In this document: in pieces, positions 21,001 to 24,000 of the stretch
Numbering within the stretch: position 1 is the first letter of the stretch
Layout: every line of letters begins with the position of its first letter
Origin: Escherichia coli O127:H6 str. E2348/69
GTDB lineage: Bacteria; Pseudomonadota; Gammaproteobacteria; Enterobacterales; Enterobacteriaceae
Assembly (NCBI RefSeq): GCF_000026545.1
Contig: NC_011601.1
DNA: 64,000 nt
Direction: 5' to 3' (one strand)
Program-made: the position numbers

Positions 21001-24000
21001 AATATGCCTGATGGTGCAACACCATCAGGCATATTAACTTATGCTTTCAGTACAGCCAGAGCTGCTTCGTAATCCGGCTCGGTGGTGATTTCATCCACCA
21101 GCTGGCTGAAAATCACATTGTCATTTTCATCAATAACCACAACGGCACGCGCTGCCAGACCTTTCAGTGGGCCATCAGCAATTGCCACACCGTAGGCTTG
21201 CAGGAATTCAGCGTTACGGAAAGTGGAGAGGGTGATAACGTTGTTCAGACCTTCTGCGCCGCAGAAACGAGACTGGGCGAACGGCAGATCGGCAGAGATA
21301 CACAGCACAACGGTGTTGTCGATCTCGGTTGCCAGTTGGTTAAACTTACGCACTGATGCGGCGCAAACACCGGTATCAATACTCGGGAAAATGTTCAGCA
21401 CTTTGCGTTTACCCGCAAACTGACCGAGGGTGACGTCAGACAGATCTTTTGCCACGAGAGTAAAAGTCTGCGCTTTGCTACCCGCCTGCGGGATGGAATT
21501 GGCGACTGTAACCGGGTTGCCCTGGAAATGAACGGTTTGTGACATGATTATCTTTCCTGTTTACATATAGTTAACGTCACACCTAGTTTATGCTAACTGT
21601 CAATAACACAGCAAACGCTATTTGCGCTTAATCCGCAGACCACCGCGACAACAAGGAGTAAAGATGAGAACCGTTAAGGTATTTGAGGAGGCCTGGCCCT
21701 TACATACCCCGTTTGTGATTGCTCGGGGAAGTCGCAGTGAAGCGCGCGTGGTGGTGGTTGAACTGGAAGAAGAGGGTATTAAAGGCACCGGCGAATGCAC
21801 GCCGTATCCGCGTTATGGGGAAAGTGATGCCTCGGTAATGGCGCAAATTATGAGCGTCGTGCCGCAATTAGAGAAAGGGTTGACACGGGAGGAGTTGCAA
21901 AAAATCCTCCCTGCCGGCGCAGCACGTAATGCGCTGGATTGTGCATTGTGGGATCTGGCGGCGCGAAAACAGCAGCAATCGCTGGCTGATTTGATCGGCA
22001 TAACGCTTCCCGAGACAGTCACCACGGCACAGACGATAGTCATCGGTACGCCTGATCAGATGGCCAATAGTGCATCAACACTCTGGCAGGCAGGCGCGAA
22101 ATTACTGAAAGTGAAGCTGGATAACCATCTTATCAGTGAGCGGATGGTGGCAATTCGCACAGCTGTGCCCGATGCGACGCTGATCGTTGATGCAAATGAA
22201 TCCTGGCGTGCAGAAGGGTTGGCGGCGCGTTGCCAGCTATTGGCAGATTTAGGCGTTGCGATGCTTGAACAACCGCTTTCTGCGCAGGACGATGCGGCGC
22301 TGGAGAATTTTATTCATCCGTTACCGATTTGTGCTGATGAAAGTTGTCATACTCGTAGCAATCTGAAGGCGCTGAAAGGGCGCTATGAGATGGTTAACAT
22401 TAAGCTTGATAAAACCGGTGGTCTGACGGAAGCGCTGGCGCTGGCGACTGAAGCGCGTGCACAAGGTTTTCGTCTGATGCTGGGCTGCATGTTGTGTACC
22501 TCTCGTGCCATTAGCGCCGCTTTACCGCTGGTGCCGCAGGTCAGTTTCGCCGATCTTGACGGACCGACCTGGCTGGCGGTAGATGTGGAACCGGCGCTTC
22601 AGTTCACGACGGGCGAATTGCATCTTTAGGATGCCAGCGCAGCAAGTTTGCCATCGCAAAGAGATATTTTTCGCTGGCTTCGTCGGAGGAGATGGGTGGA
22701 AACTCTGCGGTGATGCAATGCAAGTTGAGATCTGCACACCAACTGCCGAAAGAGCCAGGCGTTTCATAACCGACGCTGGTTACCAGGGGCAATTCAAACG
22801 CCTGGGCCAGCCATTCACCTAATTCGCTGTGTCTGGGATCTTCAATACAGGCCAGCGGATCGTGGAATGAGACCACCCAGGCAGGTTGAATGCGGTGTAT
22901 AAGTTGGCACAGCGCCTGGGTTTCAGGTTCGGAGCCAGGTTTGTCACCTGTCAGTAATACAACATCACGTTCTTCAGCGGCGCTGTTCCAGCGATAAACT
23001 GTTTCACCTTCCTTCCAGTTTGCTGCCGGAAAGTTTCGGTTTAAATCCACACCATTAGCATTGGCCCGTAACCCTAACTGGCAGCCGTCAGGATTCACAC
23101 ACAGCACCACATGATGGCGGCGCAAAGAAGGTGTCAAAGTCCGCAGAGCACAGGAGAGCGTGACGATCGAAGAGTTTTCATCACCGTGAGTGCCAGCCAG
23201 AATCAAACCACTTTCGTGACTGGCTGCAGGGGCCGGAAACCAGATTAACGGCGCGCCCAATAATGAACGTCCGTAATGTTCTGTTCCGGGCGGAAATGCG
23301 CCGCGTTCGGCGCGTGGGCGAGTTACGGTCATGATCGTCTCTGGTTCAGGAAGTATTACAGGCAGTGTTGTGCAAATTTTGCGGATTATCAAATCCTTTT
23401 CTTCAACGCTATGTCATCGATCTTGTATCACTTTTTTGCCGGAAGTTGTTTGTATTTTCATTGATGTGCAGATATTAGAATTGTCGTAATGTTATATACA
23501 TGGCGTATTTTATTCTTACTGGTTCTACACATGTTAATCGCATCTGATTGATCAGTTCACCTTAATAAGTTTAATAAATCGTACTGCACATAGTACAGTA
23601 CGATGGTAGCTATATAATTGATTTACATGAAGAAGGGCTTATCACTATCAGTCCCGGGTTGATTGATGCCTATATTCTCACCAATGTGTTTCTCAGGTTT
23701 ATCGATGATATCTGTGATTAATGCTGCGACACTCTTACGTGATACGATCGTACCTTTGAATGGTTCATTGCGTGAGGTAAGCTCATAATCAATAATATCT
23801 TCATCAGTCAGCCAGGCAGGGCGAAGAATTGTATATTCCAGTCCAGAAGCCTCAATTGCATCCGCAGCCCTGCGGAATGGTTTTAGGGGTTCACCAATAA
23901 CTGCATTATTCCATTCGCCAAATTTTCCTGGAACTTCATCATAAATACCGAGTGAAAGAACAAAGATCAGACGTTTAATATCACAGGCTTTCATCGCAGC

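What the first reader, a model, noticed from the sequence alone, without database searches (positions are those of the whole stretch)
22604..22629. Convergent 26-bp overlap of ycjG and mpaA 3' ends
The two genes of the murein-peptide pathway overlap tail-to-tail on opposite strands, so each transcript is antisense to the end of the other. This allows transcriptional interference or RNase III-dependent mutual regulation.
Basis: seen in the sequence. Interest (0 to 1): 0.3.

Follow-up and report, generated by a model that had tools for sequence, protein, structure and literature searches.

The report
Known ycjG–mpaA tail-to-tail gene overlap
Two neighbouring E. coli cell-wall-recycling genes on opposite strands really do share their last 26 bases, but this is an already annotated and published arrangement, best explained by the two genes abutting with no spacer or terminator, and there is no evidence that it regulates anything.

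Summary
ycjG (+, 21664-22629) and mpaA (-, 23332-22604) overlap by exactly 26 bp (22604-22629). RefSeq annotates the same overlap in E. coli K-12 and E2348/69, and the junction is present in 5414 of 5426 complete E. coli genomes.

It is not new. ExcludonFinder (NAR 2025) lists ycjG-mpaA as a convergent "excludon". About 75 convergent gene overlaps are known in E. coli.

The conserved protein ends, YcjG ...LHL and MpaA ...RWHP, lie one nucleotide apart, so each stop codon must fall inside the other gene. The overlap is 26 bp in 25 of 80 related species, 10 bp in 44 and 4 bp in 3; the states differ by single-base changes. Five species have a REP-like element or a small gene plus terminator inserted between the genes.

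No intrinsic terminator lies at the junction. Published K-12 data place Rho-dependent termination of ycjG transcription about 381 nt inside mpaA. They also place RNase III-cut duplexes 498-575 nt inside mpaA. So the transcripts overlap by hundreds of bases, not 26.

Mutual repression is unproven. Neither mRNA rises in RNase III mutants, both genes sit in the PgrR regulon, and they catalyse consecutive steps of one pathway.

The parts
21664..22629 (+). ycjG coding sequence (L-Ala-D/L-Glu epimerase, 321 aa, TAG stop)
   Evidence: ORF list. NCBIfam equivalog NF011708, 674 bits. RefSeq annotation. PDB 1JPD covers residues 1-321.
22604..23332 (-). mpaA coding sequence (murein tripeptide amidase, 242 aa, TGA stop)
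   Evidence: ORF list. NCBIfam equivalog NF007897, 478 bits, whose 237-position profile ends at residue 236. RefSeq annotation. PDB 5HXD is a 237-residue chain matching MpaA residues 1-237.
22604..22629 (.). The 26-bp tail-to-tail coding overlap
   Evidence: Read directly from the sequence. Identical in the K-12 and E2348/69 annotations.
22607..22627 (-). Seven poorly conserved MpaA tail codons (KDAIRPS), read from the antisense of the conserved YcjG C-terminal codons
   Evidence: MpaA tail entropy reaches 2.1-2.8 bits, against 0.5-1.8 bits for YcjG at the same place. The tail is QR in the 10-bp group and absent in the 4-bp group. The NCBIfam profile and the PDB chain end before it.
22627..22627 (.). 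The single nucleotide between the last conserved YcjG codon (L321, 22624-22626) and the complement of the last conserved MpaA codon (P235, 22628-22630). The 10-bp species have two nucleotides here (TG)
   Evidence: Junction alignment: E. coli cttTAGgatgcc versus Enterobacter ctcTGAggctgcc.
22620..22634 (.). Small 5-6 bp inverted repeat across the ycjG stop (GCATC..GATGC). It is not a terminator
   Evidence: Folds of the junction are no more stable than shuffles, with z of +0.79, -1.87, -0.15 and -0.44 and no U tract. The terminator scan finds nothing between 21630 and 23861.
22630..23010 (+). ycjG 3' untranslated extension, antisense to mpaA, up to the peak of a Rho termination region mapped in K-12
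   Evidence: Adams 2021 supplementary file 2: position 1390286 on the + strand, antisense to mpaA, Rho score 3.94, p 7.2e-5. The coordinate was transferred to the window through a gap-free alignment with 43 substitutions in 1669 nt.
22930..23130 (+). Tract with more C than G on the + strand RNA (C/G 1.35-1.79), as expected of a Rho loading site
   Evidence: Composition scan. It coincides with the published Rho region peak at about 23010.
23127..23204 (.). Sites of two RNase III-cleaved 21-22 bp duplexes captured by p19 in K-12 (23127-23149 and 23181-23204)
   Evidence: Huang 2020 Table S3. The sequences were located in K-12 locus L001 at 4128-4150 and 4182-4205. The second duplex was found directly in the window. 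The first does not match the window exactly, so its coordinates are transferred from K-12.
22083..22503 (-). C-rich, G-poor tract on the - strand RNA after the mpaA stop, antisense to ycjG. It is the predicted zone of Rho-dependent termination of mpaA transcripts
   Evidence: C/G of 1.3-2.0 at +100 to +460 nt. This is a prediction only: no 3' end is recorded in or antisense to ycjG in the Term-seq or Rho-region tables.

Best explanation
The 26-bp overlap is a real but passive result of two convergent genes lying back to back with no spacer.

Shown:
- The conserved ends of YcjG (...LHL) and MpaA (...RWHP) are one nucleotide apart, so each gene takes its stop codon from the antisense of the other's codons.
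- The length of the overlap simply reflects where a stop happens to occur.
- In the Escherichia, Salmonella and Citrobacter sequences, the junction has one base fewer right after ycjG (TGAgg becoming TAgg). This keeps a stop for ycjG, shifts the mpaA frame, and changes a 10-bp overlap into a 26-bp one, giving MpaA a new, unconserved seven-residue tail.
- No intrinsic terminator lies at the junction.

Shown in published K-12 data: ycjG transcription continues about 380 nt into mpaA and is stopped there by Rho. RNase III-cut duplexes occur inside mpaA.

Inferred: mpaA transcripts likewise run into the C-rich antisense of ycjG. The resulting low-level double-stranded RNA and rare polymerase collisions between two weakly expressed, co-regulated genes have little or no regulatory effect.
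For: - Anatomy and frames.
- Across 80 species, the overlap is 26 bp in 25, 10 bp in 44, 4 bp in 3, and 33, 47 and 151 bp in one each; 5 species have gaps of 88-331 bp.
- The ycjG stop is TAG in all 27 loci with 26 bp (25 species plus the two E. coli references) and TGA in all 44 with 10 bp.
- Either gene can be the extended one. YcjG is extended in some Citrobacter and in Pantoea, Erwinia and Cronobacter, whose overlaps are 26, 21 and 19 bp.
- The MpaA tail is variable and missing from the crystallised chain.
- No terminator hairpin at the junction.
- Rho termination region at +381 nt on the ycjG strand, coinciding with a C>G tract.
- Antisense coverage of mpaA is about 42% of ycjG sense coverage per nucleotide. 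Antisense coverage of ycjG is about 11% of mpaA sense coverage (my arithmetic on the figures; columns).
- p19 duplexes inside mpaA.
- Sense RNA does not rise in rnc mutants: ycjG 51, 39, 33 RPM and mpaA 74, 42, 22 RPM in WT, rnc-14 and rnc-38.
- Both genes are in the PgrR regulon and act consecutively in one pathway.
- Random 3' extension to the next stop is the accepted model for convergent overlaps (Kingsford 2007, as described in PMC3887535).
- 75 such pairs exist in E. coli.
Against: - The zero-spacer arrangement is kept in 78 of 83 species examined, across Enterobacteriaceae and Erwiniaceae. This could reflect selection rather than inertia.
- ExcludonFinder reports higher synteny for excludon pairs in general.
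- RNase III does cut duplexes in mpaA, so some post-transcriptional effect is possible.
- The rnc RNA-seq is a single data set with global normalisation and no induction of the pathway. It cannot exclude a conditional effect.
- The 3' end of mpaA transcripts is predicted, not mapped.
- All transcript data come from K-12, not from the strain in the window.
Confidence: 0.65

Rival explanations
1. The pair is a functional convergent excludon. Overlapping 3' transcription lets each gene repress the other, through polymerase collision and RNase III cleavage of the sense-antisense duplex.
For: - The pair is listed among 165 convergent excludons seen in at least 50% of 58 MG1655 transcriptomes.
- The ycjG transcript extends about 381 nt into mpaA.
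- RNase III-cut duplexes lie inside mpaA.
- Antisense reads are about 20-25% of sense reads on both genes.
- The arrangement is conserved in 78 of 83 species.
Against: - Because the coding sequences overlap, any two full-length mRNAs must overlap. The excludon call is therefore expected by construction and says nothing about effect.
- Sense RNA of both genes falls, not rises, in rnc-14 and rnc-38.
- Neither gene name occurs in the rnc proteomics table.
- The two enzymes are sequential in one pathway and share the PgrR regulon, so mutual exclusion would be counter-productive.
- Both genes are weakly expressed, which makes collisions rare; this last step is inference.
- Five species tolerate inserted DNA between the genes, and in four of them it includes a terminator.
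Confidence: 0.2
2. The locus forms interleaved noncontiguous operons. In this view mpaA and tpx are co-transcribed on one strand across antisense ycjG, tyrR and ycjG are co-transcribed on the other strand across antisense tpx, and the coding overlap is part of a design that coordinates all four genes.
For: - ExcludonFinder lists mpaA-ycjG-tpx as one of three noncontiguous operons, and tpx-ycjG as a divergent excludon.
- Huang 2020 found p19 duplexes across the whole tpx coding sequence. They cite a tyrR-ycjG read-through transcript annotated by Conway et al..
- The synteny mppA-mpaA-ycjG-tpx-tyrR is kept as far out as Pantoea, Erwinia and Cronobacter.
Against: - The classification rests on coverage thresholds, not on full-length reads for this locus.
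- Antisense coverage across ycjG is only about 11% of mpaA sense coverage (arithmetic).
- tpx has a promoter-like site of its own and about nine times the RNA level of mpaA.
- The antisense of ycjG is C-rich throughout, which favours Rho termination.
- No functional link between tpx and mpaA is known.
Confidence: 0.1
3. The overlap is an annotation artefact: one of the two reading frames ends earlier than annotated.
For: The last five to seven MpaA residues lie beyond the NCBIfam profile and the crystallised chain.
Against: Stop codons are fixed by reading frames that homology supports up to MpaA residue 236 and YcjG residue 321. No earlier in-frame stop exists. Even the minimal conserved ends are 1 nt apart, so some overlap is unavoidable.
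Confidence: 0.02

Closest known systems
Convergent (tail-to-tail) overlapping gene pairs formed by 3' extension to the next stop codon (model of Kingsford, Delcher and Salzberg 2007; 75 such pairs counted in E. coli by Huvet and Stumpf 2014)
   Same: Two genuine genes on opposite strands share their 3' ends. One tail is an unconserved extension. Relatives show other stop positions that are reachable by single-base changes.
   Different: Nothing essential differs. This pair is unusual only in how long the zero-spacer state has persisted, and in that either gene can be the extended one in different lineages.
Convergent excludons (Listeria concept; ExcludonFinder map of E. coli, NAR 2025, PMC12288877)
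   Same: Neighbouring opposite-strand genes have overlapping transcripts, and RNase III products lie in the overlap. This very pair is on the published list.
   Different: Mutually exclusive expression has not been shown for this pair, and the available data point the other way. The genes cooperate in one pathway rather than oppose each other.
mscL-arfA convergent 3' overlap in E. coli (PMC10070815; title and abstract seen, details from my own knowledge)
   Same: Convergent E. coli genes with overlapping 3' regions, also on the ExcludonFinder list.
   Different: For mscL-arfA an antisense regulatory effect was tested experimentally. For ycjG-mpaA no such experiment exists.
Bidirectional intrinsic terminators between convergent genes (Ju et al. 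2019, from my own knowledge; the paper is not held in the library)
   Same: Both are solutions to the problem of ending two convergent transcripts in a short space.
   Different: There is no GC-rich hairpin with flanking A and U tracts here. Termination is Rho-dependent and lies deep inside the partner gene. A true bidirectional terminator appears only in the four species with an inserted small gene.
Noncontiguous operons (Saenz-Lahoya et al. 2019, cited in PMC12288877)
   Same: A gene lies on the opposite strand between co-transcribed genes. mpaA-ycjG-tpx is listed as one, and tyrR-tpx-ycjG is described as similar.
   Different: The evidence is coverage-based only, and read-through across ycjG is low, about 11% (arithmetic).

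Membership tests
Convergent overlapping gene pair by 3' extension | Two genuine protein-coding genes on opposite strands share 3'-terminal nucleotides | tested here: met
Convergent overlapping gene pair by 3' extension | The overlapping tail of at least one gene is an unconserved extension beyond the conserved protein core | tested here: met
   The MpaA tail after RWHP is variable (up to 2.75 bits). It is absent from the NCBIfam profile and from PDB 5HXD.
Convergent overlapping gene pair by 3' extension | Relatives show alternative stop positions explained by point mutation or frameshift | tested here: met
   A 1-nt indel separates the 10-bp and 26-bp states. A TGA to TAA or TAG change gives the 4-bp state. 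YcjG stop loss gives the Citrobacter youngae variant.
Convergent excludon | Transcripts of the two neighbouring genes overlap | tested here: met
   Met through published K-12 data that I looked up: ExcludonFinder Table 1, the Rho region at +381 nt, and antisense reads. It also follows logically from the coding overlap.
Convergent excludon | RNase III processing of the sense-antisense duplex | tested here: met
   p19-captured 21-22 bp duplexes lie inside mpaA, 498-575 nt past the ycjG stop. No duplex is listed under ycjG in Table S3.
Convergent excludon | Expression of one gene lowers expression of the other (mutually exclusive expression) | tested here: inconclusive
   There is no direct experiment. 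Sense RNA of both genes falls in rnc mutants, and both are in the PgrR regulon. Both points argue against the feature but do not settle it.
Bidirectional intrinsic terminator | A GC-rich hairpin flanked by an A tract and a U tract between the convergent genes | tested here: not met
   No terminator-like site lies between 21630 and 23861. Junction folds are not more stable than shuffles. No Term-seq 3' end is recorded at the junction.
Rho-dependent termination within an antisense 3' UTR | Read-through increases when Rho is inhibited with bicyclomycin | tested here: met
   Met for the ycjG strand only, and in K-12. The downstream/upstream coverage ratio rises from 14/47 to 68/58 with bicyclomycin; Rho score 3.94, p 7.2e-5. 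Neither the Term-seq nor the Rho-region table holds an entry naming ycjG, so nothing is recorded for the mpaA strand.
Rho-dependent termination within an antisense 3' UTR | An untranslated C-rich, G-poor tract upstream of the termination zone | tested here: met
   + strand: C/G 1.35-1.79 at 22930-23130. - strand: C/G 1.3-2.0 at 22083-22503.
Noncontiguous operon | Single RNA molecules join two same-strand genes across an opposite-strand gene | not testable with these tools
   Only coverage-based listings are available. The SMRT-Cappable-seq supplements hold no entry for either gene.

The most novel reading that the evidence does not exclude
The zero-spacer, terminator-free convergent layout has been kept across Enterobacteriaceae and Erwiniaceae because it matters. 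In this reading the long mutual 3' antisense overlap acts as a rheostat that balances two consecutive enzymes of murein tripeptide breakdown. It may do so as part of interleaved noncontiguous operons on both strands (tyrR-ycjG and mpaA-tpx).
Probability: 0.1. Interest if true: 0.45.

Novelty: already known. Interest (0 to 1): 0.15.

Why it matters
As it stands it matters little. The overlap is in every E. coli annotation, the pair is already on a published excludon list, and about 75 similar overlaps exist in the genome. The modest added value is a worked example of how such overlaps arise and drift. The conserved protein ends abut, stop codons are borrowed from the partner's antisense codons, and one-base changes switch the overlap between 4, 10 and 26 bp. 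It also shows that the coding overlap under-describes the real antisense overlap, which is set by Rho termination hundreds of bases inside the partner gene. If the layout did tune two consecutive pathway enzymes, it would be an excludon-like architecture used for cooperation rather than exclusion.

Tried and rejected
- **Terminator at the junction.** The consensus scan found none between 21630 and 23861. Folds of both strands were no better than shuffles. Rejected.
- **Known RNA families.** Rfam with permissive thresholds over 20900-24400 gave no hit.
- **Antisense promoter inside mpaA.** There is no + strand promoter-like site in 21000-25326. Read-through from ycjG is therefore the simpler source, though this is weak evidence.
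- **Embedded conserved elements.** Third-position entropy at four-fold sites is flat along both genes in about 80 species: mpaA windows 1.29-1.57 against a mean of 1.47 (sd 0.39), and ycjG windows 1.19-1.59 against a mean of 1.44 (sd 0.38). This argues against hidden sequence-specific signals. It cannot test cis-antisense pairing, which is perfect whatever the sequence.
- **Data sets that yielded nothing.** Dar and Sorek 2018, Conway 2014 and Altuvia 2018 have no supplements held. The SMRT-Cappable-seq supplements have no entry for either gene. Lybecker 2014, Peters 2012, Ju 2019 and Kingsford 2007 are not held. The ExcludonFinder supplements are not held.
- **Small inserted ORF.** The NCBIfam search found no family.
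- **Annotation artefact.** Rejected, because the stops are fixed by homology-supported frames.
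Full report
**Observation.** The window matches E. coli E2348/69: the 2 kb searched around the junction is 100% identical. 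ycjG runs on the + strand from 21664 to a TAG stop at 22627-22629. mpaA runs on the - strand from 23332 to a TGA stop, the reverse complement of 22604-22606. Both products are full-length NCBIfam equivalogs: L-Ala-D/L-Glu epimerase at 674 bits and murein tripeptide amidase MpaA at 478 bits. Both have solved E. coli structures. RefSeq annotates the same 26-bp overlap in K-12 MG1655 and in E2348/69. The 96-nt junction occurs in 5414 of 5426 complete E. coli genomes.

**Is it more than chance?** Not in any interesting sense. One E. coli genome has 75 convergent coding overlaps among 663 overlapping pairs (PMC4161906). In this pair the last conserved YcjG codon (L321, 22624-22626) and the complement of the last conserved MpaA codon (P235, 22628-22630) are separated by a single base. 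With no room for stop codons between the conserved ends, each gene must take its stop from the antisense of the other's codons. All three minus-strand frames entering ycjG would give an overlap, of 4, 26 or 108 bp.

**Comparative anatomy.** I fetched 80 species-level genomes that carry MpaA and located both stop codons in each.

| State of the junction | Species (of 80) |
|---|---|
| 26-bp overlap (Escherichia, Salmonella, Citrobacter) | 25 |
| 10-bp overlap (e.g. Enterobacter, Raoultella, Kluyvera, Leclercia, Kosakonia) | 44 |
| 4-bp overlap | 3 |
| 33, 47 or 151 bp (the last probably a frameshifted ycjG) | 1 each |
| Gap of 88-331 bp | 5 |

- ycjG and mpaA are convergent neighbours in all 80 species.
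- The junction alignment shows that the 10-bp and 26-bp states differ by one base right after ycjG. TGAgg becomes TAgg, which preserves a ycjG stop (now TAG), shifts the mpaA frame, and replaces the tail QR with KDAIRPS.
- The ycjG stop is TAG in all 27 loci with 26 bp (25 species plus the two E. coli references) and TGA in all 44 with 10 bp.
- A TGA to TAA or TAG change in ycjG creates an mpaA stop and gives the 4-bp state.
- The YcjG end is conserved to its last residue, while the MpaA tail is highly variable. That tail lies beyond the NCBIfam profile and beyond the 237-residue crystallised chain 5HXD.
- In some Citrobacter, and in Pantoea, Erwinia and Cronobacter, YcjG is instead the extended gene. 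The overlaps in the last three are 26, 21 and 19 bp.
- This is the pattern described by the 3'-extension model of convergent overlaps (Kingsford 2007, as summarised in PMC3887535).
- Of the five species with a gap, one carries a REP-like palindrome. Four carry a homologous 39-40 aa membrane-protein ORF together with a textbook bidirectional terminator. The overlap is therefore not obligatory.

**How the transcripts end.**
- There is no intrinsic terminator at or near the junction. The scan finds none between 21630 and 23861, and the junction folds no better than shuffled sequence. Rfam finds nothing.
- Published K-12 data fill the gap. I mapped K-12 coordinates to the window through a gap-free alignment.
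- Adams et al. 2021 list a Rho termination region on the + strand with its peak at 1390286, classed as antisense to mpaA. Its Rho score is 3.94 and p is 7.2e-5. It lies 381 nt past the ycjG stop, at about window 23010.
- That position sits inside the only C-rich, G-poor tract of the + strand RNA, 22930-23130.
- Their Term-seq tables hold no 3' end in or antisense to ycjG.
- On the - strand, the RNA after the mpaA stop is C-rich from +100 to +460 and again from +600 to +880. I therefore predict Rho termination of mpaA transcripts inside ycjG. This has not been mapped.
- Huang et al. 2020 report antisense reads on both genes in wild type: ycjG 51.2 sense and 10.0 antisense RPM, mpaA 73.9 sense and 17.6 antisense RPM.
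- Per nucleotide, by my arithmetic, antisense coverage of mpaA is about 42% of ycjG sense coverage. Antisense coverage of ycjG is about 11% of mpaA sense coverage.
- Their Table S3 lists RNase III-cut duplexes inside mpaA at window 23127-23149 and 23181-23204, 498-575 nt past the ycjG stop.
- ExcludonFinder (NAR 2025) lists ycjG-mpaA among 165 convergent excludons seen in at least half of 58 MG1655 transcriptomes. It also lists tpx-ycjG as a divergent excludon and mpaA-ycjG-tpx as a noncontiguous operon.

A complete mRNA must reach its stop codon, which lies inside the other gene. The proposed refuting result, 3' ends upstream of the overlap on both strands, is therefore impossible for intact messages. 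The regulatory conclusion has no support:
- Sense RNA of both genes goes down, not up, in rnc-14 and rnc-38. ycjG goes 51, 39, 33 RPM and mpaA goes 74, 42, 22 RPM.
- Neither gene name occurs in the rnc proteomics table.
- Both genes are listed in the PgrR regulon.
- MpaA and YcjG catalyse consecutive steps of the same pathway, tripeptide to L-Ala-D-Glu to L-Ala-L-Glu. Mutual exclusion would therefore be counter-productive.
- Both genes are weakly expressed, so polymerase collisions should be rare. This point is inference.
- Four-fold synonymous sites show no region of extra constraint along either gene in about 80 species. That argues against embedded signals, although it cannot test cis-antisense pairing itself.

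**Best explanation.** The overlap is a passive by-product of two abutting convergent genes with no spacer and no terminator. Its length is set by where stop codons fall. The biologically relevant feature is the mutual 3' UTR overlap of hundreds of nucleotides, ended by Rho. That overlap yields some double-stranded RNA, which RNase III cleans up, with little or no regulatory effect. I put this at about 0.65. A functional excludon is about 0.2. A coordinating pair of interleaved noncontiguous operons is about 0.1. An annotation artefact is about 0.02.

**Comparison with known systems.** The pair is a member of the class of convergent overlapping genes formed by 3' extension: all three defining features were tested and met. 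It meets the transcript-overlap and RNase III features of an excludon, but the defining mutually exclusive expression is untested and the indirect evidence goes against it. It is not a bidirectional-terminator pair.

**Novelty and score.** Already known. The overlap is annotated and the pair is on a published excludon list. What this analysis adds is the one-base history of the overlap, and the point that the coding overlap under-describes the real antisense overlap. Interest is 0.15.

Noticed in passing
window about 23283, - strand (K-12 coordinate 1390559): Adams 2021 Term-seq records a fairly strong RNA 3' end (score 27317) inside mpaA, 50 nt after its start codon. It lies just after two small hairpins (GCGCCG-AACG-CGGCGC and UUCC-GCCC-GGAA). 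It could mark premature termination or a processed, protected end. The folds are not significantly more stable than shuffles (z -1.7 and -1.4).
   Followed up: partly
window 21039-21545 (tpx) and flanks 20995-21664: In K-12 the whole tpx coding sequence is covered by RNase III-cut duplexes. It is cluster S-116, among the top 20 in Huang 2020. The antisense RNA is attributed to the tyrR 3' UTR, the ycjG 5' UTR, or a tyrR-ycjG read-through transcript. ExcludonFinder also lists tpx-ycjG as a divergent excludon. This is a much stronger antisense signal than the one at the ycjG-mpaA junction.
   Followed up: partly
window 23623-24261, - strand: A 212-aa SDR-type oxidoreductase gene lies between ycjY and mpaA. 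It is intact in E2348/69 (RefSeq 'SDR family oxidoreductase'). In K-12 only a 138-nt pseudogene fragment remains at this place.
   Followed up: partly
L043 3822-3938, L049 3813-3929, L045 3798-3914, L052 3842-3958 (- strand of each locus): Four species carry a homologous 39-40 aa ORF with a hydrophobic C-terminal half (for example MIEWEDESVATQDELMKRMIDTVAAVVLVLIVVAGLYFA). It lies just after ycjG and is followed by a strong bidirectional terminator, all inserted between ycjG and mpaA. No NCBIfam family matches, and it is absent from the window and from the other loci.
   Followed up: partly
L049 (record CACSKA010000006.1): The record is titled Chryseobacterium sp. 18061, but it carries an Enterobacteriaceae-type mpaA-ycjG locus. 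Its spacer is 96% identical to that of L043 (titled Citrobacter sp. 18056). The assembly is probably mislabelled or contaminated.
   Followed up: no
window 23333-23392, - strand: The mechanical ORF for mpaA starts at a TTG 20 codons upstream, giving 262 aa. The gene coordinates used by Huang 2020 span that longer 789-nt form. Current RefSeq and the NCBIfam profile support the 242-aa ATG start.
   Followed up: partly
L046 (Trabulsiella odontotermitis strain 01): The best ycjG match here is only 66% identical, and the first in-frame stop gives an apparent 151-bp overlap. This suggests a frameshift, either a pseudogene or an assembly error, rather than a real long overlap.
   Followed up: no
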